Source: Thermoplasmata archaeon
GTDB lineage: Archaea > Thermoplasmatota > Thermoplasmata > Halarchaeoplasmatales > Halarchaeoplasmataceae
Direction of reading: 5' to 3'
Assembly (NCBI GenBank): GCA_003552585.1
Contig: PUNK01000035.1
Location: forward strand, 93 to 64,092
DNA: 64,000 nt
The notes under the pieces are model-generated. The model was given only the letters and a program-made list of their open reading frames with translations. It was not told the origin of the DNA and did no database searches. Within the stretch, counting starts at the first letter, position 1; every line of letters begins with the position of its first letter. Below, piece by piece: positions 36,112-50,501 of the stretch. The position numbers and the translations under genes were made by a program.

Positions 36112-38700
36112 TCATTCGAGGAATTCAGGAGGAAGATAGTCTGTCTCCTCTTCCTCATACAACTCCTCTTCGTCGAATTCTAGATCTTCTAATTCCTCTT
36201 TCTTTGTAAAGAAAACAGCCAAGGCGATCCCGCCGGCAACAACTATAACTATAGATGAGATCACCATCATTATGTCCAATGATGTGGTCCGAATCCTGTA
36301 CATCCTTATCTCACCTAAATCCATTTCCTCTCCCGGAGGTACTGTAACTTCTCTTTTAACCGTTTGATATCTTTCTTTTTGGAAGGTGATTTCATACTCA
36401 CCAGCATACGTCTCTATTTTAAATCTTCCATCATGATTAGTGAACACGACATCTCCAGATTCTAGCTCCACCTTAACATCGTGGATCGGATCACCTCTGT
36501 GGTCGACTACAACGCCGGTCAGGTTTCCACTTCTCATGGTTGTGAATGACCATGAATAGGTCTCTTCCAATTCATTCCCTGCAAGGTCGCTACCGTTAAC
36601 AAATATAGTATAATTAGTACCGTATTCTACATCGTTTTCTGGAGCCGCTCTTACTCTATCTTCATCGACCCATGTATGATTGCCTATGGAAAGTTTATCT
36701 GAACTTATATTTACCGATCCTTGATCCATCTCTTCGGAGAATGTGATGTCGATAACAAAATCTCTAGAGACCTCGTCTCCCCTGGGTCGAGCATAGAGAA
36801 CCTCAGGAATGGTGTGATCGACGAATATTTGTAGAGATATGTTCGCTTCGTTACCCGCTCTATCTACAGCTTCCATTCGTATAATATATTCTCCTTCAGT
36901 TAAATTCTCAAACCGATGTGTTCCCTTTGGTGGCACTTCAAACCAATCGCCTTCATCCAGTCTTACCCTTACATCTTCTACACCTGAATTATCGTCGGTC
37001 ACGTTCCACTCCAAAAGGATGAAATCTTTATTAGTGTAATAACCGTCATATGGATAGATGATCTCTATCTCTGGTGACACATCGTCTGGTGACCCTTCCA
37101 TTACCTGGGTGTGAAGGCTTTCTCCAACATCATTGAATGCTGATAACCTGTAATAATATGTTTCATTGATCTCCACTTCGGTATCCGTGTAATTAAACTT
37201 CCCAATATCTTCGATCTCTTCGAGGAGAGAAAAGGAGGTAGGTTCATCACCTTTGTATATCCGATACCCAAGGAGTTCAGTTTTACCCATGGATCGAGGT
37301 TCATCCCACACGATGTTCAGGTATTCTTTACCAGGATCAACTGATGCGTTTCTAGGGTGACTCGGGATGACAGGCATGGATGGTTCTACGAGCGGTAGGT
37401 AATCCTTTGCATCACTTCCAGTGATATTGTATGCTTTATCCACCATCCCATCCTCATCTTCATCGGGTTCGGTCCACTCACTCCAGTGATTCCCAATATC
37501 TGAGGAGTTCCATCTGTTCAAACTAGTGTCATCTCTTCCCTGGCTTTTTGTTTCGTTGTTCAGCTCTCGTATCCCATTGTTATACATAAAAGCGTTTTCA
37601 TAGATCAAATTTTTTGATGATCCCTGGGTCAATATCATACCCTTCCCTGGTGCCCTCATGATCCGGTTATGATGTATGGTATTATTATGGGAATTCCCAA
37701 CCGTTACACCGTTGTTATAGATGATGTTGTTGGATATCATATTGTGGTTCGAGTGAGATTCAAGAACCAAACCAGCTTGTCCATTGTCGATGATTTTGTT
37801 GTCGGCTACAGTCACATGATCAGAGTTGTGAAGGATGATACCCTCTCTACCGTGTTCAAATATATTATTCTCCAAAGTGATATTATTAGATGAATGGATC
37901 CTTAGACCCGCACGAGGACTACTTCTGAATTCGGAGTTTGATACATCTATATCTGAGGAATATGCTAAGATCGATTCAGTATCTGATAGGTCTAAATTCT
38001 GCAGGGTTGCATAGCTAACGTTGGCAAATATGACCTGTCCCGCATTTGAAATTTCCATCCAACCCAAGTTTTCATTGGCGTAGTATTCGATCGGTTTGCC
38101 AGAAAAGGTGTTATCAACCATGATTTGATTTGCCAGAGTTTCTCTATCTAACGTGATGGTCAAGGGGCCATCATATAACGAATTGCCTTCAAATCTATTA
38201 TTTATTGAGCCCTCTATAGATATGCTTACTTCGTTGCCTTCGAAATTATTATCTTCTACTATGTTAGATGCGGAACTCCTGATGAGCAATCCTATGTGGT
38301 TGTTGTTGAAATCACTATCTATCACCCTAACATTACTGCTTTGATGGAGCAGCAATCCTGCTCCCTTTTTCCATATACTATCATCATGAGAAGCATTTCT
38401 GAATTCACAACTTTTAAAATCGGTGTGAAGTGTTGTATTGCCCATATAAAAAGAGTTCCCATCCCCTTCAAAAACATAATTTTCTATAATAAAAGGGTCT
38501 TGTTCTGTACCCTCTCCCTCTATATTTTCTTCTTCTACAAAATCCAACAACTCATCGTCGCTATCAATTCTGACACCTTTTTCATTATGATCATCTTCTG
38601 CAGTACTATTATCTAAAAGGTACATTGAACTGGAGCCGAAGATGATGATCGCTATGAGAACGATCGATATCAGTTTTTGTTCTGTTTTCGCCATTACCAT
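36112..38700 (-). CDS. secreted right-handed parallel beta-helix (NosD/PbH1-like) surface protein with Ig/FN3-like and CarbopepD_reg-like domains; C-terminal TM + acidic tail
   Basis: Signal peptide. Multiple PbH1 repeats (NNHIGLLIRSSASNIVEDNNFEGN..., NIFEHGREGIILHNSDHVTVADNKIIDNGQAGL...). GVVVDHRGDPIHDVKVEL CarbopepD-like module. C-terminal TM then EELEDLEFDEEELYEEEE. Confidence 0.7.
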   Translation of the reverse strand: MVMAKTEQKLISIVLIAIIIFGSSSMYLLDNSTAEDDHNEKGVRIDSDDELLDFVEEENIEGEGTEQDPFIIENYVFEGDGNSFYMGNTTLHTDFKSCEFRNASHDDSIWKKGAGLLLHQSSNVRVIDSDFNNNHIGLLIRSSASNIVEDNNFEGNEVSISIEGSINNRFEGNSLYDGPLTITLDRETLANQIMVDNTFSGKPIEYYANENLGWMEISNAGQVIFANVSYATLQNLDLSDTESILAYSSDIDVSNSEFRSSPRAGLRIHSSNNITLENNIFEHGREGIILHNSDHVTVADNKIIDNGQAGLVLESHSNHNMISNNIIYNNGVTVGNSHNNTIHHNRIMRAPGKGMILTQGSSKNLIYENAFMYNNGIRELNNETKSQGRDDTSLNRWNSSDIGNHWSEWTEPDEDEDGMVDKAYNITGSDAKDYLPLVEPSMPVIPSHPRNASVDPGKEYLNIVWDEPRSMGKTELLGYRIYKGDEPTSFSLLEEIEDIGKFNYTDTEVEINETYYYRLSAFNDVGESLHTQVMEGSPDDVSPEIEIIYPYDGYYTNKDFILLEWNVTDDNSGVEDVRVRLDEGDWFEVPPKGTHRFENLTEGEYIIRMEAVDRAGNEANISLQIFVDHTIPEVLYARPRGDEVSRDFVIDITFSEEMDQGSVNISSDKLSIGNHTWVDEDRVRAAPENDVEYGTNYTIFVNGSDLAGNELEETYSWSFTTMRSGNLTGVVVDHRGDPIHDVKVELESGDVVFTNHDGRFKIETYAGEYEITFQKERYQTVKREVTVPPGEEMDLGEIRMYRIRTTSLDIMMVISSIVIVVAGGIALAVFFTKKEELEDLEFDEEELYEEEETDYLPPEFLE

Positions 38701-38875
38701 TCCTATACCATTTAAAATATTCCTTATTATTATAACTTTTGTATTGGATCCTGTGTTCCAGTGTGTATGGATATGGGGTTCGATAGAACACCCTCCTCAT
38801 AGGTCTTCCCCAAATCGCCAGGTATGAAGAAACTATAAATATTCCCCGTTGATTAGACCTTTAAGAGGATAAAAT

Positions 38876-39268
38876 ATGGATATGGCGGAATTAAAAGATA
38901 GGTTCCTGATGGCCTTTAAAGATAATAAAGATATTTGGGCCTATATAGCATCTATCTCTGCCATCCTGGTCACAATATCTGCCATACTTATCGTCTTTGC
39001 TGGAGATACGGGTATCTTTTTGGGTGCGATTATTATATCATCAGCCATAACTTTTCTTGTAGCCTCTTTGTTTGCGCTTGTTTTTGGAATTATTGGAGGG
39101 CCGATCATCGGCTTGTTTTTTGGTTTGTTCTTTGGAACTTATATCAGCTTTTGGATAGGTGGTCCCCAAGCGGCATATGTATCGTCCTTTGCCTCACCTA
39201 TTGCAGGCGTTGTTTCTGGTTATTTGACGGGAAAAGTAGGTAATACCTACGTTCCATCCGATGAATAG
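38876..39268 (+). CDS. small Gly-rich 3-TM membrane protein, possible partner of the FtsZ-like GTPase
   Basis: 130 aa; ends 24 nt before the FtsZ-like gene on the same strand. Confidence 0.45.
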   Translation: MDMAELKDRFLMAFKDNKDIWAYIASISAILVTISAILIVFAGDTGIFLGAIIISSAITFLVASLFALVFGIIGGPIIGLFFGLFFGTYISFWIGGPQAAYVSSFASPIAGVVSGYLTGKVGNTYVPSDE

Positions 39269-39292
39269 TTTTATATCGATTAAATCATTTAC

Positions 39293-40234
39293 ATGACCGA
39301 GGTCTTAATGGTAAAGATTAAAAGGTTCGGGGCGCAGACTGAAGATCCGATAAAGAGACCGGACACCATGATCTTTGGTATTGGAGGTGCCGGTAGGAAT
39401 ATTTTATCTTCGATGATCGACACTCCACACCTTTCTAATGTGGACAAATTTGAGGTCGGGTGTGTAGATATGCTCCCCAACCTACCGTTTATACAGATCG
39501 ATAAGCGAGATATGAAGGAATCTTTTGATTCAAAATCTTCCTTCGGGATACGTCCCCCTAACCCAACCGAAGAAAAGCTGATCCGCAGGATCAAAAATGC
39601 TGATATTCTATATCTATTATCCGGTATGGGTGGACGGACAGGAAGCTGGACCACTCCTACATTAGCTCATATCGGAAAGAACAAAGGGGCCTTCACCATA
39701 GCCCTGCTTGCAATGCCTTTCGAAACAGAAAATACAGGGCGATGTCGTTTTGCAGAGGAGGCTAAGGATAGGGTTGGAGAACATGCAGACATCTTGGGCG
39801 TGTTCAGCAACAGTCGATTACTAAGTCTAAATCCACATCTACCTATGACAAAAGCGTTCGACGTTATGAATAATATAATCAGTCTTCCCGTGCAGGACTT
39901 AAATGCTGTTGTGACAAAGGATGATCTAAAAACTCTAAAAGTATTCTGTGACGGTGTCGATGAGTTCAGGATAGGTGCGGGGTATGGTAGGGGTAGAGAG
40001 AGGGGTAAACGGGCCTCCGAAGAGGCCTTACGTTCTCCATGGTTGGATGATTTTTCCGACTACCGTACCATACTCAGTGTTGTCACTAGTGGTGTAGGTT
40101 CAGCCGAGCTCGAGGCCAGCGATGCACTCGATATAATCAGTGAAAAGGCACCGAAGGCCAACATCCTCTGGGGACTTAGAAAAAACCCCGAGCTGGGGGA
40201 AAGAACAAAAGTGACCTTATTGGCTGGAAAATAA
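39293..40234 (+). CDS. divergent FtsZ/tubulin-superfamily GTPase (FtsZ-like paralog, 313 aa)
   Basis: T1 GIGGAGRN. T4 tubulin signature degenerated to GMGGRTGSWTTP. T5 PFETENTGRCRF. SNSRLL (FtsZ NDxLL). C-terminal domain EALRSPWL...VTLLAGK. Lacks the FtsZ C-terminal linker and tail. Confidence 0.7.
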   Translation: MTEVLMVKIKRFGAQTEDPIKRPDTMIFGIGGAGRNILSSMIDTPHLSNVDKFEVGCVDMLPNLPFIQIDKRDMKESFDSKSSFGIRPPNPTEEKLIRRIKNADILYLLSGMGGRTGSWTTPTLAHIGKNKGAFTIALLAMPFETENTGRCRFAEEAKDRVGEHADILGVFSNSRLLSLNPHLPMTKAFDVMNNIISLPVQDLNAVVTKDDLKTLKVFCDGVDEFRIGAGYGRGRERGKRASEEALRSPWLDDFSDYRTILSVVTSGVGSAELEASDALDIISEKAPKANILWGLRKNPELGERTKVTLLAGK

Positions 40235-40257: not shown

Positions 40258-41268
40258 CTATTCCTTTTTGCGGAATACGTAGTACACTGCTGGAATAGCT
40301 ACCGCCACGAGCAGAAGTATGAAACCAGCATGTGGTATATCCTCTGCTGCAGATACTTCTATCCATTGTGTGCTGAAGTTCTCAACGTGGAACACGTAAA
40401 CTGCACCTCCACCGACACTGGCGTTTGATCGGTCCAGTCCTTCATAATTCACCGCATCACTGGTCTCTATCTCCAAGTCGCCTTCAGCGTCTGCGAGATG
40501 TTCGTCTGCAAAGGCCCTGTTCATGAGTATAGATACATGGTTGGTATGGTTATTATCGGTAACCTCGATCCTCAGTACGCCGTCTTCAAAGGAAACGGTC
40601 ACCATATCTACACCTCTTGGATCACCCGCATTCACCACTGCAGCGGCCCATGGTTCGTATCCTTCTACCTTTAGAAACGTGACTGCACCGTGAGCAGCAG
40701 CGTTCTTGGCGGAATCGTAATATCCCTTTGCATCTTCGACAGGTGGTACAAAGTCCGACGGAGGTGTTCTACCAGATACTTCTATCCATTGTGTGCTGAA
40801 GTTCTCGATATGGAATACATATACCGCTTGGTCAGCCGCAATCTCGTGTGCTTCGTTCAATCCTTCGTAATTCACGGCATCGCTGGTCTCTATCTCTAAA
40901 TCACTCTCAGCCTCTGCTAAATGTAGATCTGCAAATTCTTTGTTCATTAATATTGTAACGTGATTTGTATGGTTTGAATCCGTTGCTTCGATCCTCAATA
41001 CACCGTCTTCGAAGGAAACGGTTACCATATCTACACCCCTTGGATCACCGGCATTCACCACCATGACTGCCCACGGTTCGTATCCTTCTACTTTGAGGAA
41101 TGAAGCCGCTCCTTGACTAGCAGCTTCCTCCACCATGTCAGTATGTACATCGATGGATATGTCATAGTCCCCTGGATCGATAGCCATCGTCTGTGCAGCT
41201 GTAGCTAACAGCAATACAAGCATGATGACGAACATCGATCTTATCAGGTTGTTTTTTCTCATCTTCAT
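40258..41268 (-). CDS. secreted protein made of two near-identical ~140-aa repeats, C-terminal TM anchor
   Basis: Signal peptide. FLKVEGYEPWA..VVNAGDPRGVDMVTVSFEDGVLRIE.TD.NHTNHV.ILMN..FAD.HLA.AE.DLEIETSDAVNYEGL occurs twice. TM + RKKE at the C-terminus. Confidence 0.6.
   Translation of the reverse strand: MKMRKNNLIRSMFVIMLVLLLATAAQTMAIDPGDYDISIDVHTDMVEEAASQGAASFLKVEGYEPWAVMVVNAGDPRGVDMVTVSFEDGVLRIEATDSNHTNHVTILMNKEFADLHLAEAESDLEIETSDAVNYEGLNEAHEIAADQAVYVFHIENFSTQWIEVSGRTPPSDFVPPVEDAKGYYDSAKNAAAHGAVTFLKVEGYEPWAAAVVNAGDPRGVDMVTVSFEDGVLRIEVTDNNHTNHVSILMNRAFADEHLADAEGDLEIETSDAVNYEGLDRSNASVGGGAVYVFHVENFSTQWIEVSAAEDIPHAGFILLLVAVAIPAVYYVFRKKE
40350..41120. repeat. intragenic tandem duplication (~420-bp unit x2, ~85-90% nt identity)
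   Basis: For example AGATACTTCTATCCATTGTGTGCTGAAGTTCTC at ~40352 and ~40774; the long shared blocks continue. Confidence 0.7.
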
Positions 41269-41340: not shown

Positions 41341-41652
41341 TTAGCCGAAGATGGTACCTACACCTGCAGCTGCGTCTTCATCAGCTTTTTTAATGGCCTT
41401 GAATATATCTTCCCCTTCATCGATCTTCTCGATATCCTTTTCGGAGAAGATATCCTCGGCCTTCTCCAGTGCCTTTTGACTGCCTTCGATGAGCACGTAT
41501 GTTATATCTTCATCGAAACCGAGACTTTCACCATCTCTTATACTCGCACTCTGTTTGCTCACCAGCTCATCGGAAAGAGCTTCAGAGATCGCTGACTTTT
41601 TCTCGTTGGGAACTTTGAATATGAAGTACATATTTTGCCTCGACAAACTCAT
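41341..41652 (-). CDS. small acidic protein with ribosomal-stalk (P1/aL12)-like C-terminal tail
   Basis: 103 aa. C-terminus ...KKADEDAAAGVGTIFG resembles the conserved archaeal P1 C-terminus (EEEALAGLxALFG). The N-terminal part is not clearly P1-like. Confidence 0.4.
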   Translation of the reverse strand: MSLSRQNMYFIFKVPNEKKSAISEALSDELVSKQSASIRDGESLGFDEDITYVLIEGSQKALEKAEDIFSEKDIEKIDEGEDIFKAIKKADEDAAAGVGTIFG

Positions 41653-41667: not shown

Positions 41668-43398
41668 CTAATCATCGTTAGAGACTTTTTTAAGATAGAT
41701 CAAGACGATCACCACCATCACCCCTGTTATCCCCAGTACGAGGTATCGCATCTCTTCAGAGAGTAGATAATCATCTATGCTTATTTCTACACTCTCTGAT
41801 CTTGGACCTTCTCCTCCTTCGCTAACTGCTGTGATAAAATATGTGTAAGTTTCTCCCCTCTCGACTTGGGTATCCTGGTAATGATAGTTTTGAGTATGGG
41901 CGATGACTTTTCCGTCACGATATACATTAAATCCTATATCAGTGAATATTCTTCTTTCGTTTATATCCCAGTAAAGCTCTATACTTCCATCTTTTTCGAA
42001 TACTTCTATGTTCTTCACCTCGGGTGGGGTATAAAGATCAGAAGTAGTTAGGTCTATCCTTCTTCCCCAGTTGTCATCGATAGTAAAATTGAGCATGGTT
42101 TCATCTACACTGATCGTAAATGTGTCATCTTTTTCATAACCATGTTTCAAAAGATTCCCTAGGTTAAGTTCATAGTACCCGTTGGTGTCGGTGTCTATAT
42201 ACAAACTTTCTCCAGTATGCTGGTTTTTGATTTTGACCTCAGAGAACCATGGATCTTTTTCATCCTCATCCCAAACATTACCATATACAATGTACGGCAC
42301 AGGTGGATACAGGTCTTGATTTCCATCTCCAAGGTCGGTATCAGCTATCCTGCACTGGTATATCAAGGAGTCGTCCAGATCTTGATTTATCTCCATTATA
42401 AGAGCCTCACGAGGATAGAACCCCTCAGCACCAGTATATATTTCAAATAAGAAGGAGTGCGCCCCTGTGTTTTCGTATACCCAATCTGTAGCACCACCTG
42501 GGGCGCTGTACCCTATCTCTTTCTCAGCCCTCCCATATGAATAAGTTCTATCTTCATCTCCACGTTTCGTAGTAAAAGAAGTCATATGTTCCGCAACCGC
42601 CCTGTACCAGTCTTCATGCGGGGTAGGTAGGTTTGCGAAGCCCCAGGGTATCAAGAGTGTTCCCCAATATGAATGTAAGTTCTGATAAGATTGTATGTCG
42701 TTCTCTATGATGAATTCTTTTAAAGCCAAGGTTTCGTTCTCTGAAAAGGGTTTTTCACCACGATAGTCATCTCTATGAGGATAGTCACTCCCCTCCCTCC
42801 AATAGATATCCCAGTTTCTATTCAGATCGACTCCTATGTTGTCTCCGGGGATGGAGTCATTACGATTTTTTCTCCAATTTTGTCTTCTACTGATATCACC
42901 ATCCCCATCATATATGTATCCGTCTGGATTTAAAACAGGCATAACGAAGATCCTTCTGTTGTTTATCAACCAGTGGATCGTATCGTTGCTGTCGTACCCA
43001 TCTATCAATCTCCAAGTTAGATAAGAGGCGACTTGGATAGAAGACCATTCTCTGGCATGCATACCACCGTCTATAAGTATGGAAGGCTTTTTCTCCACTT
43101 GAGTGTTGGAACCAGTGATCTCCAACACCCAAAGATTCCTTCCCTCCCAAGAGTGGCCTATATGGTGTCTAGTAACTATATGAGGGTAGTTTGTTTCTAG
43201 TTCTATATACCATCCATAAAGTTCATCCACTGAGGGATAATTTTCATCGAAGGGGTAATCCGATCGGATATTTTGTTCTTCATAAGGCCCTAAGTCCCCC
43301 TCTAATCCTACTGTCGTACTTCCCAGGAGAAGCAGAAGAACGAGTATGATTGAAACTGCTCGTATTTTCATCGTGAATAGATTCAGCCCGTTAGACAT
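41668..43398 (-). CDS. secreted M14 zinc carboxypeptidase with FN3-like domain and C-terminal TM anchor
   Basis: Signal peptide. HxxE zinc motif in GGMHAREWSS and carboxypeptidase-A-like core. C-terminal TM + KKVSNDD. Confidence 0.75.
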   Translation of the reverse strand: MSNGLNLFTMKIRAVSIILVLLLLLGSTTVGLEGDLGPYEEQNIRSDYPFDENYPSVDELYGWYIELETNYPHIVTRHHIGHSWEGRNLWVLEITGSNTQVEKKPSILIDGGMHAREWSSIQVASYLTWRLIDGYDSNDTIHWLINNRRIFVMPVLNPDGYIYDGDGDISRRQNWRKNRNDSIPGDNIGVDLNRNWDIYWREGSDYPHRDDYRGEKPFSENETLALKEFIIENDIQSYQNLHSYWGTLLIPWGFANLPTPHEDWYRAVAEHMTSFTTKRGDEDRTYSYGRAEKEIGYSAPGGATDWVYENTGAHSFLFEIYTGAEGFYPREALIMEINQDLDDSLIYQCRIADTDLGDGNQDLYPPVPYIVYGNVWDEDEKDPWFSEVKIKNQHTGESLYIDTDTNGYYELNLGNLLKHGYEKDDTFTISVDETMLNFTIDDNWGRRIDLTTSDLYTPPEVKNIEVFEKDGSIELYWDINERRIFTDIGFNVYRDGKVIAHTQNYHYQDTQVERGETYTYFITAVSEGGEGPRSESVEISIDDYLLSEEMRYLVLGITGVMVVIVLIYLKKVSNDD

Positions 43399-43471: not shown

Positions 43472-43993
43472 ATGAAAGATGATAGCCATACATGTACATA
43501 TATGATTGAGGATGATACGAGTGAAACGAAGATCATCGTAGAGTGTGGAGAGTGTTCTAATAGTTTTTCGTTTAGATCATGCCTTCCTGAGATAGTAAGA
43601 TCGTGGGACAAGGTATCTAATTCAGATAAATTGATTTTTTCAGATACCTTTGAACGTAAGTACTCCAAAGGAACCGTTGAGATCATCTCATTCTTTCTTT
43701 CTCTACACGAACAATTTAAAAGAAATTCACGACGTGATCCTGATAAAAAAGAATGTAAGAAATGTGTTATTTCACCAAAAAGGATCTATTCTAGCTTGAT
43801 CGTTGACTTGGAGAAAGATCCCGAAGATATGTTTGAGTCGATCAACTCTGCAGCCCTCGAGCTTATGAAATCCAGCGGATGTCGGTCATGCAGGAGAGCA
43901 ACTATTGAGGAGTTAAGGGTGTTGTCTTCTTCTTTACTTGATATGAACTCGAGAGTATTATCGAAAGCATACGGTATTGTAGGTGAGGGATAG
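43472..43993 (+). CDS. hypothetical Cys-pair protein (possible Zn-binding), overlaps the start of the secretion ATPase
   Basis: 173 aa. Cys pairs CGEC, CKKC and CRSC. 11-nt overlap with the downstream gene. Confidence 0.4.
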   Translation: MKDDSHTCTYMIEDDTSETKIIVECGECSNSFSFRSCLPEIVRSWDKVSNSDKLIFSDTFERKYSKGTVEIISFFLSLHEQFKRNSRRDPDKKECKKCVISPKRIYSSLIVDLEKDPEDMFESINSAALELMKSSGCRSCRRATIEELRVLSSSLLDMNSRVLSKAYGIVGEG

Positions 43994-45716
43994 GATGAAA
44001 TATGAGGATCCTTTGAGACGTATCAGAGATGTAGATGGTGAAAGGTTCTTCCGTGGAATAGATAAAATGATGGAGAGTGAAGAAGAAAAACGTCCGTCGT
44101 TCTCTCACTCTTGGTTAGATGAACAGGTACCTTCTGATTCTGAAAGGCTTTTAGAGTATAACGTTAAAAACTCGACGGTCAGATTGTATAGGCTGAAGGA
44201 TGAGACGGAAGACCTCTATCATCTTGTTCCATCCGAATACTCGATGGAGGAGAAGGAAGCCTATTTACTCAACATGATAAAAAAGCACATCGCTGAAACC
44301 TATCCCAGGAACGCGGATTTTTCATCTACAGACATGGTCAAGGAATACCTTCTTAATACTGGGAGGAGCATCATAGAAAGTACGGCGACTAAAGAATCGA
44401 TCAAGCTTGGAGACAGCCGTGAGGAGGAGCTAAAAAATATAGATGAACTTTCGTCCCTACTCGTCAAATACACGGTGGGTTATGGTGTACTTGAAACTCT
44501 TTTCAAGGATCCTAATGTACAGGATATTTACATAAACGCACCATCAGAGCAAAATCCCGTATATGTGGAATTGTCTGGAATACCTGACATACGTGAACGC
44601 TGTCGAACGAATATTTACGTCAGTATAGATGGTGTTGATGGCCTTCTTTCCAGGATGCGTTCAGAAAGTGGGGAGCCCTTTTCTGAGGCCTTTCCCGTTC
44701 TAGAGATGGACCTAAGTGAATTCAACAGTCGTGCCACGGCGATAGGTCCTCCTTTGAGCCCGGACGGAATAGCACTGGCTTTTCGAAGAAGGGATTCCGA
44801 GCCCTGGACCCTTCCAAGATTGATATCCGTGGGTAGCCTTACTCCTCTGGCAGCCGGTCTCCTCTCATTCCTTGTAGATGGAAGGAGCACCATCCTGGTA
44901 GCTGGTAGTAGGGGTGCTGGGAAAACATCACTATTGGGTGCCCTAATGATGGAGTTTCCCAGAAGTCAAAGGGTGCTGACAATAGAAGATACAAGAGAGC
45001 TACCTTCAGAGAGCATGCAGGAAGCGGGATACAACATACAGAGCATGACTGTAAGTTCCTTTTTAGATGAGGATGATCTGAGTGCCGATGATGCTTTACG
45101 AGTTTCTCTTCGTTTAGGAGAATCTTCACTGGTACTTGGAGAAGTCAGAGGTCAGGAAGCTAGGACGTTGTACGAAGCCATGAGAGCCGGGACTGCTGGA
45201 AGTGCGGTCATGGGTACGATCCACGGTGATTCACCTAGATCTGTCTATGAAAGGGTGGTTCACGATATGGGGATCTCGGAGAAGAGTTTTGCAGCGACCG
45301 ATATAGTCGTGATCGCCGGTCTGGTCAGACCCGGGGGTACGCAAACGAGGAAGCGAAGGGTGACTCATATCTCTGAATATGATGAAGGAGAATTCTCGAA
45401 CTTGATGGAGTATTCTAGTGAACTAGAGCCAACCGACGTGTTGATGAAGCAGTCTGAAAAGGTAGGTGCAATAGCCCGTTCATGGGGCATGAGGTACGAA
45501 GAGGCCATACAGAATATCGGTGTGAGGGCACATATGAGGAAAATGATGGTTGAGAAAGCCGAAGAGAAGGGGAAGCATCTGCTCCGTCCGGAATGGGTCT
45601 CTGAGGCCAACAGCGTGTTCTGGAACCTTATAGAAGAACACCAGGGTACAGGTTCTTTAGCTGGTGTAAAAAAGGATTGGACTGAGTGGTTCCTGAAGAG
45701 GGTAAAACATGTCTAG
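43983..45716 (+). CDS. type II/IV secretion-system ATPase (FlaI/TadA/PilB family; archaeal type IV pilus/archaellum assembly ATPase)
   Basis: Walker A GSRGAGKTS, VLTIEDTREL, Asp/His boxes VLGEVRGQEA...GTIHG. Confidence 0.8.
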   Translation: MRDRMKYEDPLRRIRDVDGERFFRGIDKMMESEEEKRPSFSHSWLDEQVPSDSERLLEYNVKNSTVRLYRLKDETEDLYHLVPSEYSMEEKEAYLLNMIKKHIAETYPRNADFSSTDMVKEYLLNTGRSIIESTATKESIKLGDSREEELKNIDELSSLLVKYTVGYGVLETLFKDPNVQDIYINAPSEQNPVYVELSGIPDIRERCRTNIYVSIDGVDGLLSRMRSESGEPFSEAFPVLEMDLSEFNSRATAIGPPLSPDGIALAFRRRDSEPWTLPRLISVGSLTPLAAGLLSFLVDGRSTILVAGSRGAGKTSLLGALMMEFPRSQRVLTIEDTRELPSESMQEAGYNIQSMTVSSFLDEDDLSADDALRVSLRLGESSLVLGEVRGQEARTLYEAMRAGTAGSAVMGTIHGDSPRSVYERVVHDMGISEKSFAATDIVVIAGLVRPGGTQTRKRRVTHISEYDEGEFSNLMEYSSELEPTDVLMKQSEKVGAIARSWGMRYEEAIQNIGVRAHMRKMMVEKAEEKGKHLLRPEWVSEANSVFWNLIEEHQGTGSLAGVKKDWTEWFLKRVKHV

Positions 45717-47676
45717 GCTTTACGAAAGACTTTGTCGAAGAGTGAATCAACTTGTAGGTGTCGATAGGGAGACGCTGGAATCTCGAAGGGAGGAGAAGAG
45801 AGATAAATTTTTAGAAAGTAAGGATGATCTGAGAAGGGCAGAGGTGAGTTTGAGAGAAGCATCGATATTAGATGGGAAGGGATCCAAAGAGTACAAAGAA
45901 GCTTCAAGTGAAGTCGAAAGAAAAAAGAAAATTTTGAAGAGGGCGAAGGAGTCATATACCCAGGAACGATTCGAGAAAACAGTATATTTTACTGGTATGG
46001 ACCTTGTGCAGGAGGAGGTTTTAAATTTTGCCGTAGTAGTCTTTTTAACTACCTTTTTCGCACTTCTTACAGGTATATATGTCTATCATATCTATCGTCC
46101 TATGAGTATTGTAGAACTTACTATGTACGTGATCCCCACCCTCCTCATCATCCCTTTACTTTCATTGTTATTTACCGCCAATTATCCGGAAATACTTGAG
46201 AAACGATTACAGGCAGAGTCAATAGGTAAAGCTCCTGAGAGTATCAATTATATGACCATGTCTATGAGGGTAAAACCTTCACTATTTCAAGCCCTGAAAT
46301 TCGCTTCTGAAAATGCTGAGGAGCCCATGGCCAGCGGATTAAAAAAGGTACTTTGGGAGGTATACACACGAAAGAGGTCTAGCATAGAAGAGTCCTTCAT
46401 GGCCTTCGCTCTCGAATGGGGTGAATGGAACGATGACCTAAAAAGATCTTTATTCTCTATTCGCTCAGCCGTGCTCGAAAAAACAAAAGAGGGCCTGGAA
46501 GGTTCGTTAGAACGGGCTAACGATATCATAATCGATGGAACCAAACAACAGGTAAAAGAATTTTCAGACTCTTTGAGCATGCCCACCACCGTTCTTTTTG
46601 CGATAGGTATAATCCTTCCCATAATGATCGGGGCCTTACTCCCAATGATGAGTATAAGCGACCTGGACATGATGCAGGAACAAACTACGAGCGGAGTCGG
46701 TATCTTTCAGATGGTTTTGATGATGAACATCGTCACCCCCATCGCTGCATTCATGTATTCCTACTATATACTATCAAAACGCCCAGGCACCGTTTCACTG
46801 CCACGCGTCGACCTTAGAGAGGATAAAACATCGGCTTTCATCGCTTTCATCATATTCGTTATTCTCTTTTTTGTATTTTATATATCTAGGGGATCTTTAT
46901 CTTATTTGATGCCACTACCTCTATTGTGGCCCCCCGTCTTTTCCCTTTCCTTTTACTTGTTGGTCACATCCTCAAAACCACGTCAGACTAGGAGGGAATT
47001 TATAAAGATGGAGAAGGAATTTCCAGATACTCTTTTTCAACTGGGCAGCCGCTTGGCTGAAGGTGCCCCTGTAGAAACCGCTCTCACATCGGTTTCCAAA
47101 AGTATGGAGGGAGCCAAGATAGCTGAGTTATTTACAAGGATATCTAACACGTGTAGGCTGCATCAGATGTCTATGGAAACCGTACTTTTCGGTAAAGAGG
47201 GTATGCTGAATGAACACCCTTCAAGTATGATAAGAGCCAGTATGAAAGCGGTAGTATCATTATCAAAAAAAGTGGCTGGTGAGGCGGGATTAACTGTGAT
47301 GCGGATTTCTAATTACCTTAAAGATATGCAGATGATGGAAGAGGATATGCGATCCGAACTTTACAGCTCGGTACAGATGATGGAAGCTACATCTATGTTC
47401 TTTGCACCTGTGGTCATGGGGGTTGTTACCGGGATGTACCATCTACTGTATGAGATATTCTTGGATATCTCAGGAGCACAATTGATATCGCCCTCGAATT
47501 TTACTGCTGTGATCTCGGTTTACTTATTGACCACCGGTTTTGTCGTAACTTACTTTACAGAGGGGATAAAATCTAGAAATGATCCTATCGAGTTTAGATA
47601 CTCACTAGGAAGGATGCTTCTTGTATGTACCGTACTTTACTCCACTGTCCTCTGGTTATCGGGTCTACTCCTCTGA
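45709..47676 (+). CDS. polytopic membrane platform protein (FlaJ/TadC-like, T2SS-F-like)
   Basis: 655 aa. Alternating cytoplasmic helical domains and TM bundles. Start overlaps the ATPase stop by 8 nt. Confidence 0.55.
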   Translation: MSRLYERLCRRVNQLVGVDRETLESRREEKRDKFLESKDDLRRAEVSLREASILDGKGSKEYKEASSEVERKKKILKRAKESYTQERFEKTVYFTGMDLVQEEVLNFAVVVFLTTFFALLTGIYVYHIYRPMSIVELTMYVIPTLLIIPLLSLLFTANYPEILEKRLQAESIGKAPESINYMTMSMRVKPSLFQALKFASENAEEPMASGLKKVLWEVYTRKRSSIEESFMAFALEWGEWNDDLKRSLFSIRSAVLEKTKEGLEGSLERANDIIIDGTKQQVKEFSDSLSMPTTVLFAIGIILPIMIGALLPMMSISDLDMMQEQTTSGVGIFQMVLMMNIVTPIAAFMYSYYILSKRPGTVSLPRVDLREDKTSAFIAFIIFVILFFVFYISRGSLSYLMPLPLLWPPVFSLSFYLLVTSSKPRQTRREFIKMEKEFPDTLFQLGSRLAEGAPVETALTSVSKSMEGAKIAELFTRISNTCRLHQMSMETVLFGKEGMLNEHPSSMIRASMKAVVSLSKKVAGEAGLTVMRISNYLKDMQMMEEDMRSELYSSVQMMEATSMFFAPVVMGVVTGMYHLLYEIFLDISGAQLISPSNFTAVISVYLLTTGFVVTYFTEGIKSRNDPIEFRYSLGRMLLVCTVLYSTVLWLSGLLL

Positions 47677-48201
47677 AATATTTCTTACGTGATCTATCCC
47701 TCTTTTTAAAGCACGCATGTTAAGATCTACAAACCTTGGTGGAACGGTATCCTTTACAGATTCCTCCAGCGCCTTTTCAGGGACGAGTCCAGCGGCTTCG
47801 TTGAAAGCCCCTATCATGACTATATTTGCAACGATGGTGTTACCCAACTCTTCGGCTATGTTTTTTGCTGGGACCTTTATCGCCTCTTCATAGTCTACAT
47901 AGGGGACCGTGTCCGGATCGATAACTACTACCGCATCATCGCTGAGGTCGTTGCTGTATTTGTCGAAGGCAGCCTGGGACATGACCATCATGTACTGGGT
48001 TTCAGGAAGTCCGCTGTAACCGATCTCTCTATCTGATATGATCACCTCTGAACGGGCTGCACCTCCTCTTGCCTCTGGCCCATAACTCTGTGCCTGGATC
48101 GCTTCGTAATCGTGGAAAACACTGGCAGCCTTTCCGAGGATATAGCCTGCGGTCATGATCCCTTGTCCCCCACTCCCGCACAAGCGTATATTTTTTCTCA
48201 T
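47665..48201 (-). CDS. korG: 2-oxoacid:ferredoxin oxidoreductase gamma subunit
   Basis: N-terminus IRLCGSGGQGIMTAGYILG typical of Por/Kor gamma. Confidence 0.8.
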   Translation of the reverse strand: MRKNIRLCGSGGQGIMTAGYILGKAASVFHDYEAIQAQSYGPEARGGAARSEVIISDREIGYSGLPETQYMMVMSQAAFDKYSNDLSDDAVVVIDPDTVPYVDYEEAIKVPAKNIAEELGNTIVANIVMIGAFNEAAGLVPEKALEESVKDTVPPRFVDLNMRALKRGIDHVRNISEE

Positions 48202-49061
48202 TCTTCCAACTCCTTCAAAAGTCTGTAATATCTTTCCTCTAGTGGTTCACGCTCCTCTTCATGAAGGACTCCGATCTTTATCATCTTGTCTGCCCTTTCT
48301 TTTTCCTCTTCAGAACCGAACTTCTGGATCTTTTCATAATCCTCTACAAGTATGGTGTTCTTCTCGTAGAATTCCCACAGATCCTGTAGCTGCCTGTACC
48401 TATTCCGCCGTCCGTAGGCTGTTGGACATGGTGAAAGTAGCTCGATCAGTGAAAAACCATTGTTTTCTAAGCCCTCGCTTATAGAGCTGATCGGTTGATG
48501 CGGTCTGAACACGGGCCACTTTGCAACGTAGCTGGCACCCGATGAGATAGCCATCTTGCTTATATCGAATGGTGGTTCTATGTTGCCGTAAGGTGCTGTT
48601 GTTGCCTTATCCTTCTCAGGAGTAGTTGGGGCAACCTGCCCGCCGGTCATACCGTAAATAAAATTGTTGACGACGATAACTGTCATGTTGAGATTTCTCC
48701 TGGCAGCGTGGATGAAATGGTTTCCACCAATACCTATACAGTCACCGTCGCCTGTGAAAACGATCACATTGAGGTCGGGTTCACTCATCTTCACTCCTGT
48801 GGCGAATGCCAGGGCACGTCCGTGTGTAGTATGTAGTGCATCCGCTTCTATGTAACCTGGTATCCTTGACGAACAACCGATACCGGAAAGGAAAACGGTT
48901 CTATCCATATCAAGTCCCACTCTATCTACGGCTCTGAGGGTGTAATCTATCACGTTACCTAGACCACAGCCGTCGCAGAAAATATGCGGCATCATATCCT
49001 TCCGTAGATATTTTTCTTGTAATTCCTTTCCACTGATCATCTTTTTATTATCATTGGCCAT
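48198..49061 (-). CDS. korB: 2-oxoacid:ferredoxin oxidoreductase beta subunit (TPP-binding)
   Basis: TPP motif GDGDCIGIGGNHFIHAARRNLNMTVIVVNNFIYGMTGGQ. Confidence 0.85.
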   Translation of the reverse strand: MANDNKKMISGKELQEKYLRKDMMPHIFCDGCGLGNVIDYTLRAVDRVGLDMDRTVFLSGIGCSSRIPGYIEADALHTTHGRALAFATGVKMSEPDLNVIVFTGDGDCIGIGGNHFIHAARRNLNMTVIVVNNFIYGMTGGQVAPTTPEKDKATTAPYGNIEPPFDISKMAISSGASYVAKWPVFRPHQPISSISEGLENNGFSLIELLSPCPTAYGRRNRYRQLQDLWEFYEKNTILVEDYEKIQKFGSEEEKERADKMIKIGVLHEEEREPLEERYYRLLKELEE

Positions 49062-49065
49062 CCTA

Positions 49066-50214
49066 TCACACCTCCTTCAGTATCTCATCCGGTGTATGCA
49101 CTTCGCCCCCGATCTTACTAGAAAGGACGACTTCACAGTCTGCGAACTCTTTTACCTTGTGATACAACTGTCCGGTATTCATCTCCACCACTACTATTTT
49201 ATCGACTTTTTTGGACAATTCTTTTACCGGGTCATTTGGGAAAGGCCACAGTGTTTTAAGCCTAAGGTATCCGATCTTTTTACCTTGATCTCGCCCTTTC
49301 GACATCGCTCCCAGGGCACTGCGGCTTGCTAGCCCATAGGAAAGAAGAACCACATCAGCGTCTTCGATGTTCCTCTCTTCAATATCTGTCAGCTCTTCCC
49401 GGTCATCAGTGATCTTTTCTATCTGTCTTCTCACGAGTCTATCGTGGTCCTCCTGGTCATCTGTAGCCGGAAAACCGTACTCATTGTGTGTAAGCCCTGT
49501 GACATAAGTGTGATATCCTGTACCGAAGGCAGCGAATTCGGGTACTTTTATATTCCCGTAATTCCCTTCGCCGAAAGGTACGTATTCTTCGGGTGGAACA
49601 TCAGGTTTCTTCCTTTCAAAAAGTTCGATTTCATCTGGGATGACAACTTTCTCTCTCATGTGTCCTATATCGGCACTGATCATCACGAACACCGGGCTCC
49701 TGTACTTTTCAGACAGGTTGAAAGCCTTGATCGTCAAATCGACCGTTTCTTGTATGGTATTCGGTGATAGTGCTATTGCCTGGTAGTCACCATGACTGCC
49801 GTACCTTGACTGCATGACGTCTCCTTCCGCTCCAAGAGTGGGTTGACCCGTGGAAGGGCCGGACCTTTGGACGTTTGCGAGTACGAGAGGAGTTTCAGTC
49901 ATGTAGGCAAAACCAATATTTTCCTGCATAAGCGAAAAACCTGGTCCGCTCGTGGCTGTCATAGCCTTTGCCCCTGTCCAGGAGGCTCCGATGACGGCAG
50001 CGATACTGGCCAATTCGTCTTCCATCTGTATATTCACTCCACCCACTTTAGGTATCAAGCTGGCCATCATCTCGGCGATCTCAGATGCAGGAGTGATCGG
50101 GTATCCTCCGTAGAAATTGCAACCCGCAAGAAGGGCACCGTAACAGACGGCGGTATCCCCGTGTATGAACTGCTTCTTTGGACCAAGAACTTTTTTTACC
50201 TTCTCAAGATTCAT
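49066..50214 (-). CDS. korA: 2-oxoacid:ferredoxin oxidoreductase alpha subunit
   Basis: GDTAVCYGALLAGCNFYGGYPITPASEI N-terminal core. Confidence 0.85.
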   Translation of the reverse strand: MNLEKVKKVLGPKKQFIHGDTAVCYGALLAGCNFYGGYPITPASEIAEMMASLIPKVGGVNIQMEDELASIAAVIGASWTGAKAMTATSGPGFSLMQENIGFAYMTETPLVLANVQRSGPSTGQPTLGAEGDVMQSRYGSHGDYQAIALSPNTIQETVDLTIKAFNLSEKYRSPVFVMISADIGHMREKVVIPDEIELFERKKPDVPPEEYVPFGEGNYGNIKVPEFAAFGTGYHTYVTGLTHNEYGFPATDDQEDHDRLVRRQIEKITDDREELTDIEERNIEDADVVLLSYGLASRSALGAMSKGRDQGKKIGYLRLKTLWPFPNDPVKELSKKVDKIVVVEMNTGQLYHKVKEFADCEVVLSSKIGGEVHTPDEILKEV

Positions 50215-50495
50215 GATCTGCCCCCAGCCTTTTTCTTTCTATCCACACCACAGCAGAGGAGTACCTTTTCCTTTTTAGAGGATTTTTTCTCCTCTTCCTC
50301 CTCGACTATGATGGCAAAATCAGGACATATCATCTCGCACAATCTACAACCGGTACACTTATCTTCGATCTCGATGGGTTCGTAGATGCCTCTCTCGTTG
50401 AGCTCTTCAGCCCTTTCCAGAGCATCGACGGGGCAGAAGCGTATGCACAGCCCACATCCCTTGCAGTATTCTTTGTTTACTTCTATCATTTTCAA
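50211..50495 (-). CDS. korD: 2-oxoacid:ferredoxin oxidoreductase delta subunit (2x[4Fe-4S] ferredoxin) with charged Cys-containing C-terminal tail
   Basis: CKGCGLCIRFCP and CTGCRLCEMICP. Tail EEEEEKKSSKKEKVLLCCGV. Confidence 0.75.
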   Translation of the reverse strand: MKMIEVNKEYCKGCGLCIRFCPVDALERAEELNERGIYEPIEIEDKCTGCRLCEMICPDFAIIVEEEEEKKSSKKEKVLLCCGVDRKKKAGGRS

Positions 50496-50501
50496 TCCAC
50501 C

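What the first reader, a model, noticed from the sequence alone, without database searches (positions are those of the whole stretch)
38876..40234. Divergent FtsZ-like GTPase with degenerate tubulin signature, paired with a small Gly-rich membrane protein
T1, T5, NDxLL and the C-terminal domain align with FtsZ. However, the GGGTG(S/T)G signature is GGRTGSW, T3 (GLGAG) is absent and the T7 region reads NAVVTKDD. This indicates a non-canonical paralog with probably altered GTP binding and hydrolysis, not the division FtsZ. The 24-nt-upstream 3-TM protein could be its membrane anchor. This is a possible uncharacterised membrane-remodelling pair among surface-protein genes.
Basis: seen in the sequence. 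Interest (0 to 1): 0.65.

Follow-up and report, generated by a model that had tools for sequence, protein, structure and literature searches.

The report
Degenerate FtsZ-like paralog with membrane neighbour
This archaeal gene encodes a well-conserved relative of the cell-division protein FtsZ that has lost most of the motifs needed to hydrolyse GTP, belongs to an undescribed family found across Thermoplasmata, and in salt-loving members usually sits next to a small glycine-rich membrane protein; what it does has not been tested.

Summary
Window 38876-39268 (+) encodes a 130-aa glycine-zipper membrane protein. Window 39293/39308-40234 (+) encodes a 308-aa protein with a confident FtsZ fold (AF2 pLDDT 91.5; Foldseek TM about 0.8 to FtsZ).

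It is not a canonical FtsZ:
- It scores 123 bits on TIGR00065 (cut-off 295).
- The T2 and T3 loops are gone.
- The T4 signature reads GGRTGSW.
- T7 is 5 residues shorter and keeps only one of its two Asp.
- There is no C-terminal SepF-binding tail.
- Its pI is 8.3, in a proteome with median pI 5.1.

These traits hold in 0/160 family members against about 142/143 canonical archaeal FtsZ. The family has about 59 clusters in halophilic Thermoplasmata and about 90 in Methanomassiliicoccales and other Thermoplasmata. NCBI calls them "hypothetical protein".

The membrane partner lies immediately upstream in 34 of 39 halophile-clade loci. It is absent from one subclade and from all wider-family loci. 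The FtsZ-like gene also has its own conserved TTTTTATC promoter-like motif.

I could not show directly that the same genomes also carry a canonical ftsZ.

Best reading: a GTPase-dead FtsZ-fold scaffold or regulator, recruited to the membrane by the neighbour in the halophile clade. This is a new variant of a known kind and of moderate interest.

The parts
38876..39268 (+). Small integral membrane protein (130 aa). It has an N-terminal amphipathic K/R-containing segment and 3-4 hydrophobic helices, with a glycine zipper (G75/G79/G83/G87) and a second motif P108..G111..G115..G119. It is the conserved upstream neighbour of the FtsZ-like gene.
   Evidence: ORF. No Pfam, NCBIfam, PADLOC or PHROG family. 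Four of 29 homologues hit Gly-zipper_Omp, best E=4e-5. Homologues lie immediately upstream on the same strand in 33 other loci. Conserved G75, P108, G111 and G115. The single-sequence AF2 model is all-helical but low confidence, pLDDT 62.
39308..40234 (+). FtsZ-like protein, 308 aa (the ORF is open from ATG 39293). It has the two-domain FtsZ fold with a degenerate GTPase apparatus and no C-terminal tail.
   Evidence: The public gene call of 308 aa is identical (P0001).
39377..39400 (+). T1 loop GIGGAGRN (residues 24-31). It is conserved and invariant in the halophile clade.
   Evidence: Alignments A1/A2.
39623..39649 (+). Degenerate tubulin signature (T4): GMGGRTGSW (residues 106-114), in place of GxGGGTG[ST]G.
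   Evidence: In the family the third Gly is E/R/D/K/Q/N in 157 of 160 sequences, while canonical archaeal FtsZ has G in 142 of 143.
39902..39925 (+). Remnant of the T7 'synergy' loop: NAVVTKDD (residues 199-206). It is 5 residues shorter than in FtsZ. T203 and D206 are invariant. The second catalytic Asp of NxDxxD is lost.
   Evidence: MAFFT alignment with a canonical FtsZ. The NxD[FLIY]xD pattern occurs in 1 of 160 family members against 143 of 143 canonical. The best single-sequence PDB hits are S. aureus FtsZ T7-replacement mutants.
39270..39279 (+). T-rich TATA-like motif (gTTTTATATC) just after the partner's stop codon and about 30 nt before ATG 39308. It is a probable own promoter of the FtsZ-like gene, and the oligo-T may also terminate the upstream gene.
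   Evidence: Sequence. A TTTTTATC-type motif sits at the same place in at least 21 related loci, including the five that lack the partner gene. Promoter or terminator function is inferred, not shown.
38831..38844 (+). TATA-like element (ACTATAAATATT) 32-45 nt upstream of the partner's ATG, followed by AAGAGGA. It is a possible promoter and ribosome-binding site of the partner gene.
   Evidence: Read directly from the sequence. Inference only; conservation was not checked.

Best explanation
The gene encodes a member of an undescribed, Thermoplasmata-specific branch of the FtsZ family. This branch keeps the FtsZ fold but has become a pseudo-GTPase.

Shown:
- The protein has the fold, and the guanine/ribose-side elements are retained (T1, part of T4, T5 Glu, T6 Asn, the H7 Phe).
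- The gamma-phosphate and Mg side is lost (T2, T3).
- The trans-acting catalytic T7 loop and the C-terminal tail that canonical archaeal FtsZ uses to bind SepF are both lost.

Inferred:
- The protein can at most bind nucleotide weakly.
- It cannot hydrolyse GTP or trigger hydrolysis in a neighbouring subunit, so it cannot treadmill like FtsZ.
- It acts as a static FtsZ-fold scaffold or as a modulator of other FtsZ filaments.
- In the halophilic order (Halarchaeoplasmatales-type MAGs), the adjacent glycine-zipper membrane protein recruits this unusually basic protein (pI 8.3) to the cytoplasmic face of the membrane. That would replace the missing tail/SepF route.
- The two genes are neighbours with separate promoter-like signals, not a proven operon.
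For: - FtsZ fold: AF2 pLDDT 91.5, Foldseek top hits all FtsZ with TM about 0.8. The family profile scores 99-142 bits on PDB FtsZ, against 23 bits or less for CetZ, TubZ and tubulin.
- Degenerate motifs are a family trait, not an accident. GGGTG[ST]G occurs in 0 of 160 members and NxDxxD in 1 of 160, and none has a C-terminal GID-like motif. In canonical archaeal FtsZ the counts are 142, 143 and 114 of 143.
- TIGR00065 score is 123.3 against a cut-off of 295.2. Thermoplasmata FtsZ1-type scores 446.7 and FtsZ2-type 433.6.
- Purifying selection: 44 invariant columns among 24 sequences that are 42-61% identical to the window's protein.
- Distinct clade: halophile clade 197/200 and whole family 133/200 NJ bootstraps, lying outside the FtsZ1+FtsZ2 cluster. 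There is a clear score gap between family and canonical FtsZ.
- Partner: present immediately upstream on the same strand at 27-71 nt in 34 of 39 halophile-clade loci that span 42-61% FtsZ-like identity.
- The FtsZ-like protein is basic (pI 8.3; clade median 7.7). The window's proteome has median pI 5.07 and canonical archaeal FtsZ about 5.0.
- No phage or defence signal.
Against: - No experiment or complex prediction links the two proteins.
- The partner is absent at five loci of one subclade and at all Methanomassiliicoccales-type loci. The family therefore functions without it.
- The whole region is syntenic in this clade: the tail-to-tail 100-aa acidic protein is kept in 31 loci. Adjacency may simply be inherited.
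- A conserved promoter-like motif between the genes argues against obligatory co-transcription.
- Loss of nucleotide binding or hydrolysis is inferred from motifs only.
- The residue at the third Gly of T4 varies between E, R, D, K and Q, and the H7 guanine-recognising Asp is N, D, G or S. Even nucleotide binding is therefore uncertain.
- Presence of a canonical FtsZ in the same genome was not demonstrated.
Confidence: 0.45

Rival explanations
1. It regulates or caps canonical FtsZ filaments. It docks on the end or side of FtsZ1/FtsZ2 polymers. Because its T7 loop is dead and its own nucleotide face is altered, it would block or stabilise subunit addition. On this view the membrane neighbour is incidental, or localises the inhibitor.
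For: - The body of the fold and helix H8 after T7 are retained (D-[IL]-x-x-[LI]-[KR] pattern), while the catalytic residues are lost.
- The wider family exists without any partner gene.
- Thermoplasmata encode canonical FtsZ1-type and FtsZ2-type proteins that it could act on.
- Methanomassiliicoccus is reported to carry six FtsZ-type proteins (PMC9856176 Table S1).
Against: Both longitudinal faces are altered (the T2/T3 face and the T7 face), which makes hetero-polymer contacts less likely. There is no genomic linkage to ftsZ1, ftsZ2 or sepF in any of 52 loci. No interaction data exist.
Confidence: 0.2
2. It is the fast-evolving ortholog of FtsZ1 or FtsZ2 in these lineages and still works in cell division, possibly as the only FtsZ in the halophile clade. 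The membrane neighbour would replace SepF as the anchor.
For: - I could not find a canonical ftsZ from the halophile clade. There is none in the window or in the flanks of 39 loci, and no strongly acidic canonical FtsZ appeared in the search outputs.
- A published survey lumps all Methanomassiliicoccus and Thermoplasma homologues into FtsZ1/FtsZ2.
- Its NJ position outside FtsZ1+FtsZ2 could be long-branch attraction.
Against: - The same derived family occurs in orders whose MAGs also yield canonical FtsZ1-type and FtsZ2-type proteins. The family is therefore older than the halophile clade and coexists with canonical FtsZ at least at class level.
- Loss of T2, T3, the catalytic T7 Asp and the SepF-binding tail is hard to reconcile with a treadmilling division ring.
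Confidence: 0.15
3. The two genes are unrelated neighbours. The FtsZ-like protein works alone, as in the wider family. The glycine-zipper protein is an independent small membrane protein that happens to sit in a syntenic block.
For: - Own promoter-like TTTTTATC motif upstream of the FtsZ-like gene, present also where the partner is missing.
- Five partner-less loci.
- Other neighbours are retained about as well: 31 loci for the 100-aa acidic protein and 27 for the beta-helix surface protein.
- The partner evolves much faster: 17-31% identity to the window's partner, against 42-61% for the FtsZ-like protein.
Against: Same strand and a nearly fixed short spacing across a clade in which the FtsZ-like protein has diverged to 42% identity. 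The partner HMM finds no copy elsewhere in about 800 kb of related loci. A tail-less, basic FtsZ-like protein needs some route to the membrane if it acts there.
Confidence: 0.3

Closest known systems
Archaeal FtsZ1 / FtsZ2 (canonical division FtsZ; TIGR00065)
   Same: Two-domain FtsZ fold. Best sequence and structure matches are FtsZ, with M. jannaschii FtsZ1 at 142 bits and Foldseek TM about 0.8. T1, T5 and T6 Asn, the H7 Phe and the FtsZ_C domain are retained.
   Different: No T2 or T3. The tubulin signature is broken. T7 is shortened, with one catalytic Asp lost. There is no C-terminal linker or GID-type SepF-binding peptide. It is basic rather than acidic and about 75 residues shorter. It scores 123 bits against the 295-bit cut-off. 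It is not next to secE-nusG-rpl11 as ftsZ1 is.
P0080-type Thermoplasmata FtsZ
   Same: Has the same shortened T7 (LTKKDIPNL). It is the nearest neighbour of the family in the NJ tree, in 104-138 of 200 bootstraps. It also scores below the TIGR00065 cut-off (261.8).
   Different: Keeps canonical T1-T6 (VNTDA, GMGA, GLGGGTGSG) and a 23-residue tail. No membrane partner is visible at its locus.
S. aureus FtsZ T7-loop replacement mutants (PDB 3WGL, 3WGK)
   Same: They are the best single-sequence PDB matches, because the T7 loop is shortened in the same place.
   Different: They are engineered proteins with an otherwise intact GTP pocket. From memory of the original study, which I did not check here, the mutations impair GTPase activity.
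CetZ (archaeal tubulin-like cell-shape proteins)
   Same: An additional tubulin-superfamily paralog in Euryarchaeota, used for something other than division.
   Different: The family profile scores only 13-23 bits on CetZ structures (3ZID, 4B46, 4B45), against 99-142 bits on FtsZ. From memory, CetZ keeps GTPase motifs.
FtsZ-like 1/2 of Makarova and Koonin 2010 (Pfam Tubulin_2)
   Same: Divergent FtsZ relatives proposed to act with membrane proteins in membrane remodelling.
   Different: There is no Tubulin_2 hit. This protein has PF00091 plus FtsZ_C, whereas those proteins lack FtsZ_C and carry long extensions (PMC9871819).
Tail-less or GTPase-defective FtsZ paralogs elsewhere (FtsZm of magnetotactic bacteria, plant ARC3, Agrobacterium FtsZ3); from memory, a lead only
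   Same: FtsZ-derived proteins that lost the C-terminal tail and/or GTPase activity and serve regulatory or specialised roles.
   Different: They are unrelated lineages with different domain make-up. No sequence comparison was done here.

Membership tests
Tubulin/FtsZ superfamily | Pfam PF00091 GTPase domain above the gathering score | tested here: met
   58.2 bits against a cut-off of 33, but only the second half of the domain matches (residues 91-179).
Tubulin/FtsZ superfamily | Two-domain FtsZ fold with an FtsZ-type C-terminal domain | tested here: met
   PF12327 scores 33.4 bits against a cut-off of 27. AF2 pLDDT is 91.5. Foldseek against FtsZ structures gives E=2e-24 and TM 0.75-0.82.
Canonical cell-division FtsZ (FtsZ1/FtsZ2, TIGR00065) | Score at or above the equivalog cut-off | tested here: not met
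   123.3 bits against 295.2. Thermoplasmata FtsZ1-type scores 446.7 and FtsZ2-type 433.6.
Canonical cell-division FtsZ (FtsZ1/FtsZ2, TIGR00065) | Tubulin signature GGGTG[ST]G (T4) | tested here: not met
   It reads GGRTGSW. The signature is found in 0 of 160 family members and 142 of 143 canonical archaeal FtsZ.
Canonical cell-division FtsZ (FtsZ1/FtsZ2, TIGR00065) | T2 (NTD) and T3 (GxGAG) loops that contact Mg and the gamma-phosphate | tested here: not met
   The aligned segments read VGCVDM and KESFDSKS.
Canonical cell-division FtsZ (FtsZ1/FtsZ2, TIGR00065) | T7 synergy loop NxDxxD | tested here: not met
   There is a 5-residue deletion. Only D206, equivalent to the first Asp, is kept. The pattern occurs in 1 of 160 family members and 143 of 143 canonical.
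Canonical cell-division FtsZ (FtsZ1/FtsZ2, TIGR00065) | C-terminal linker and conserved peptide (archaeal GID motif) that binds SepF | tested here: not met
   The protein ends 0-6 residues after the last strand. A GID-like C-terminus occurs in 0 of 160 family members and 114 of 143 canonical. The motif definition is from PMC8178401.
Canonical cell-division FtsZ (FtsZ1/FtsZ2, TIGR00065) | GTP-dependent polymerisation, GTPase activity, midcell ring | not testable with these tools
   Needs biochemistry and cell biology.
Canonical cell-division FtsZ (FtsZ1/FtsZ2, TIGR00065) | Being additional to, or instead of, canonical ftsZ in the same genome | tested here: inconclusive
   No second FtsZ-type gene in the window or in 52 loci. 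Canonical FtsZ1/2-type proteins exist in Thermoplasmata MAGs, but none could be tied to the same genome.
CetZ | Closer to CetZ than to FtsZ in sequence | tested here: not met
   The profile scores 23, 15.6 and 12.9 bits on 3ZID, 4B46 and 4B45, against 99-142 bits on FtsZ chains.
FtsZl1/FtsZl2 (Pfam Tubulin_2) | Tubulin_2 domain, no FtsZ_C, long terminal extensions | tested here: not met
   No PF13809 hit, FtsZ_C present, 308 aa with no extensions. The family description is from PMC9871819.
TubZ/PhuZ (plasmid and phage tubulins) | Sequence affinity and a mobile-element context | tested here: not met
   RepX/TubZ scores 13.3 bits. No PHROG or PADLOC hits. The context is a chromosomal syntenic block.
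Glycine-zipper small membrane proteins (the partner) | GxxxGxxxG repeats within transmembrane helices | tested here: inconclusive
   The motif is visible (G75/G79/G83/G87). Only 4 of 29 homologues hit Pfam Gly-zipper_Omp (best E=4e-5), and the window's copy has no hit.

The most novel reading that the evidence does not exclude
Halophilic Thermoplasmata use a nucleotide-independent FtsZ-fold polymer with its own dedicated integral-membrane receptor (the glycine-zipper protein). This would be a new archaeal membrane-cytoskeleton module that works beside, or in place of, the FtsZ2/SepF arm of the divisome. The wider ~300-aa family would be a third ancient FtsZ lineage of Thermoplasmata that became a pseudo-GTPase.
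Probability: 0.15. Interest if true: 0.75.

Novelty: new variant of a known kind. Interest (0 to 1): 0.5.

Why it matters
Archaeal division is understood mainly from FtsZ1, FtsZ2, SepF and a few haloarchaeal Cdp proteins. Thermoplasmata, many of which lack a wall, are almost unstudied.

This would be a conserved FtsZ-fold family that has shed the gamma-phosphate loops, the catalytic T7 Asp and the SepF-binding tail. It could show how a cytomotive GTPase is turned into a static scaffold or regulator. In one order it comes with a candidate membrane receptor that can be tested directly.

It also matters for annotation. NCBI labels these proteins 'hypothetical', JGI labels them 'cell division protein FtsZ', and a published survey appears to count such proteins as FtsZ1/FtsZ2. 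Inventories of division genes in Thermoplasmata may therefore be inflated or misassigned.

Tried and rejected
1. Second FtsZ gene. I looked in the window and in all 52 fetched loci with phmmer and found none.
I compared 'longest contig' values of about 240 canonical and family hits. There was no true match. One apparent match (27,055 bp) was a coincidence.
3. Same-genome link by sample. P0352 and P0431 come from different assemblies.
4. Look-up of P0001. It returned only a 5.9-kb Logan contig, so the contig could not be extended beyond the window.
5. Candidate canonical FtsZ from halophilic Thermoplasmata. I tried cluster names, nearest-neighbour BLAST and acidity. None was found.
6. Literature. 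Searches for Halarchaeoplasmatales, Haloplasmatales, Natronoplasma, FtsZ3 and non-canonical tubulin-superfamily proteins gave no description of this family. The supplements of PMC9856176 hold counts but no sequences.
7. Structure of the partner. The single-sequence model is low confidence and was not used for fold search.
8. The afdb50 fold library was unavailable.
9. Phage or defence origin: rejected.
10. CetZ, TubZ or Tubulin_2 membership: rejected.
11. Pseudogene or relic: rejected because of strong conservation and a confident fold.
Full report
**What is there**

The window carries two co-oriented ORFs at 38876..39268 (130 aa) and 39293..40234 (313 aa), 24 nt apart. The second gene most likely starts at ATG 39308. 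Three things point to this:
- The public gene call P0001 is the 308-aa form.
- Every homologue begins M-x-x-x-K-R-F-G.
- The spacing to the upstream gene in related loci is typically 37-39 nt.

The window is archaeal. Its predicted proteome is acidic, with median pI 5.07. The closest relatives of the gene come from MAGs of halophilic or haloalkaliphilic Thermoplasmata: Ca. Halarchaeoplasma, Haladaptatiplasma, Saliniplasma and Natronoplasma.

**The FtsZ-like protein**

It belongs to the tubulin/FtsZ superfamily:
- Pfam Tubulin scores 58 bits and FtsZ_C 33 bits, both above their cut-offs.
- All 49 single-sequence PDB hits are FtsZ, best E=2e-27.
- An AlphaFold2 model built on 24 family sequences is confident (pLDDT 91.5, pTM 0.91) and superposes on FtsZ structures with TM about 0.8.
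- A family profile scores 99-142 bits on FtsZ chains, with M. jannaschii FtsZ1 best. It scores only 13-23 bits on CetZ, TubZ/RepX and tubulins.

It therefore belongs to the FtsZ branch. It is not a CetZ, not a TubZ, and not a Tubulin_2 'FtsZ-like' protein in the sense of Makarova and Koonin.

**It is not a canonical FtsZ**

On NCBI's FtsZ equivalog model it scores 123 bits against a cut-off of 295. Canonical Thermoplasmata FtsZ proteins score 447 and 434 bits.

Loop by loop:

| Element | This protein | Canonical FtsZ |
|---|---|---|
| T1 | GIGGAGRN, kept | GxGGxGxN |
| T2 | absent | NTD |
| T3 | absent | GLGAG |
| T4 | GMGGRTGSW | GGGTG[ST]G |
| T5 | PFETEN, kept | PFxFEG |
| T6 | NSRLL (Asn kept, Asp→Ser) | NDxLL |
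| H7 | stacking Phe kept; guanine-recognising Asp is Asn | Phe and Asp |
| T7 | 5 residues shorter (NAVVTKDD); only the first Asp of NxDxxD remains | NxDxxD |
| C-terminus | chain ends right after the last strand | linker plus peptide |

The missing C-terminal peptide carries the archaeal 'GID' motif that binds SepF (PMC8178401). That motif is visible as ...LGIEFV or ...FGIDFIR in the canonical sequences retrieved here.

The protein is also basic, with pI 8.3. Canonical archaeal FtsZ has a median pI of about 5.0.

**These are family traits**

Homology searches found about 59 clusters (at 90% identity) of close relatives, 42-61% identical to the window's protein. All are about 305-314 aa and all are labelled 'hypothetical protein' by NCBI.

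An exhaustive profile search of 1.84 billion representatives showed a wider set of about 50 representatives of about 300 aa, scoring between this clade and canonical FtsZ. A profile of that wider set retrieved about 90 clusters from Thermoplasmata, Methanomassiliicoccales and RBG-16-68-type archaea. A clear score gap separates them from canonical FtsZ. NCBI calls them hypothetical and JGI calls them 'cell division protein FtsZ'.

Motif counts in 160 family members against 143 canonical archaeal FtsZ:

| Feature | Family | Canonical |
|---|---|---|
| GGGTG[ST]G | 0 | 142 |
| NxD[FLIY]xD | 1 | 143 |
| GID-like C-terminus | 0 | 114 |
| SPW motif | 153 | 0 |

The third Gly of T4 is mostly Glu (99 of 160). 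It can also be R, D, K, Q or N.

In a neighbour-joining tree the halophile clade is monophyletic in 197 of 200 bootstraps and the whole family in 133 of 200. The nearest neighbour is a small Thermoplasmata group (P0080-type) that has canonical T1-T6 but the same short T7. The family falls outside the cluster that holds both canonical archaeal types. This is a simple distance tree with long branches. I do not treat the deep placement as settled.

**Canonical FtsZ in Thermoplasmata**

The searches returned two canonical types from Thermoplasmata MAGs:
- One has a ...DLELEFLK-type tail and lies in the ftsZ-secE-nusG-rpl11-rpl1-rpl10-rpl12 context, with sepF nearby. That is the ftsZ1 signature described by Pende et al..
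- The other is a 398-aa type with a ...FGIDFIR tail, probably FtsZ2.

A published survey lists six tubulin-superfamily proteins in Methanomassiliicoccus luminyensis and two in Thermoplasma, all filed as FtsZ1 or FtsZ2 (PMC9856176 Table S1).

This fits the family being an extra paralog. I could not prove co-occurrence in any single genome:
- There is no second FtsZ-type gene in the window or in 52 fetched loci.
- Attempts to match contigs or samples failed.

**The membrane neighbour**

The 130-aa protein matches no Pfam, NCBIfam, PADLOC or PHROG family.

It has:
- a short amphipathic, K/R-containing N-terminus;
- three to four hydrophobic helices;
- a glycine zipper (G75, G79, G83, G87);
- a second conserved P108..G111..G115 motif.

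Four of 29 homologues touch Pfam's glycine-zipper model.

An HMM built from the upstream ORFs finds a homologue immediately upstream, on the same strand and 27-71 nt away, in 33 of 38 related halophile-clade loci plus the window. It finds none anywhere else in the loci.

The five exceptions form one subclade (L002, L003, L004, L006, L007), where a DUF655 gene lies 226-235 nt upstream instead. None of the 12 wider-family loci has the partner. There the gene stands alone between mre11-rad50 and diphthine synthase, Trm5 and dCTP deaminase genes. Another subgroup has a different context again.

**How strong is the link between the two genes?**

It is suggestive, not proven:
- The block as a whole is syntenic in this clade. 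The order is an RNase-H-like exonuclease, a small membrane protein, a large beta-helix surface protein (divergent), the pair, then a convergent 100-aa acidic protein. Other neighbours are retained nearly as often as the partner.
- A T-rich TATA-like motif (TTTTTATC; gTTTTATATC at 39270-39279 here) sits about 30-38 nt before the FtsZ-like start in at least 21 loci, including the partner-less ones. The FtsZ-like gene probably has its own promoter, and the oligo-T may also terminate the upstream transcript.
- The partner evolves much faster: 17-31% identity to the window's partner, against 42-61% for the FtsZ-like protein.

**Mechanism**

Shown: the FtsZ fold; retention of the base and ribose side of the pocket; loss of the gamma-phosphate and Mg loops, of the trans-acting catalytic Asp and of the SepF-binding tail; strong purifying selection, with 44 invariant columns.

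Inferred: the protein cannot carry out the GTP-hydrolysis cycle that drives FtsZ treadmilling, and it may bind nucleotide only weakly or not at all. I therefore favour a static FtsZ-fold scaffold or modulator. In the halophile clade it would be brought to the membrane by the glycine-zipper neighbour (confidence 0.45).

Rivals:
- a capper or regulator of canonical FtsZ filaments (0.2);
- a fast-evolving ortholog that still divides the cell, possibly as the only FtsZ (0.15);
- for the pairing alone, mere synteny (0.3).

**Novelty and verdict**

I found no description of this family in the searchable literature. The superfamily and the idea of divergent FtsZ paralogs are well known, so this is a new variant of a known kind.

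Its interpretation is partly supported: the non-canonical family and the conserved neighbour hold, while paralogy in the same genome, the anchor role and membrane remodelling remain untested. Interest is moderate (0.5).

Noticed in passing
window 41341..41652 (-); homologues in 30 related loci, e.g. L014:10942-11232: A ~100-aa acidic protein with no family hit lies tail-to-tail next to the FtsZ-like gene in 31 loci. It is often only 4-60 nt from the FtsZ-like stop; in the window a surface-protein gene is inserted between them. Its invariant C-terminus E[ED]AAAG[VIM]GT[VI]FG resembles the ribosomal stalk aP1 tail ...EEALAGLSALFG, which binds translational GTPases. The pairwise match is short and not significant on its own (E=0.28).
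   Followed up: partly
window 22341..23591 (+) and 23604..27584 (+): A 416-aa double-zinc-ribbon protein (30% Asp+Glu) with a coiled-coil region is followed by a 1326-aa Glu/Lys-rich coiled-coil giant with RNase_Y_N-like repeats. This purine-rich stretch explains the strong GC and AT skew peak at 22-28 kb. A 2026 preprint reports zinc-ribbon CdpC-like FtsZ1 anchors with remote relatives in Thermoplasmatota. Any relationship was not tested.
   Followed up: partly
window 39270..39279 and the same position in at least 21 related loci: A conserved TTTTTATC-type motif lies about 30-38 nt upstream of the FtsZ-like start, right after the partner's stop codon. It is also present in the loci that lack the partner. 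It is probably a TATA box, an oligo-T terminator, or both.
   Followed up: partly
window 2079..8777 (+): A 2232-aa protein combines an STT3/AglB oligosaccharyltransferase N-terminal domain with many CarboxypepD_reg and Ig-like repeats. It is followed by a CARDB-domain protein at 8778..9557.
   Followed up: no
window 36112..38700 (-), 40258..41268 (-), 41668..43398 (-): Three surface proteins with C-terminal membrane anchors surround the pair: an 862-aa NosD/beta-helix protein (divergent neighbour, conserved in 27 loci), a 336-aa internally duplicated protein, and an M14 carboxypeptidase.
   Followed up: partly
window 43983..47676 (+): A T2SSE-type ATPase (577 aa) and a T2SSF-type membrane protein (655 aa) look like an archaeal type-IV-pilus or archaellum-like assembly pair.
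   Followed up: no
proteins P0080, P0224, P0225 (locus L058): A small group of Thermoplasmata FtsZ proteins has fully canonical T1-T6 motifs but the same 5-residue-shorter T7 and no GID tail. They score 261.8 bits on TIGR00065, below the 295.2 cut-off. They are a possible evolutionary intermediate and the nearest neighbour of the family in the NJ tree.
   Followed up: partly
proteins P0064 (840 aa), P0071 (826 aa), P0082 (744 aa); P0095 (810 aa): Among the profile hits were tandem fusions of two complete FtsZ units in one polypeptide, and one FtsA-FtsZ-like fusion.
   Followed up: no
loci L038-L050 (Methanomassiliicoccales-type): In these relatives the FtsZ-like gene is consistently divergent from an mre11-rad50 pair and is followed by diphthine synthase, a Trm5-like methyltransferase and dCTP deaminase genes. 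No membrane partner is present.
   Followed up: partly
window 47665..59952 (-): A block of energy-metabolism genes by ORF content: 2-oxoacid:ferredoxin oxidoreductase-like subunits and a 1000-aa HdrA-like flavoprotein with hydrogenase-like subunits. They were judged only from N-terminal sequences and were not scanned against families.
   Followed up: no
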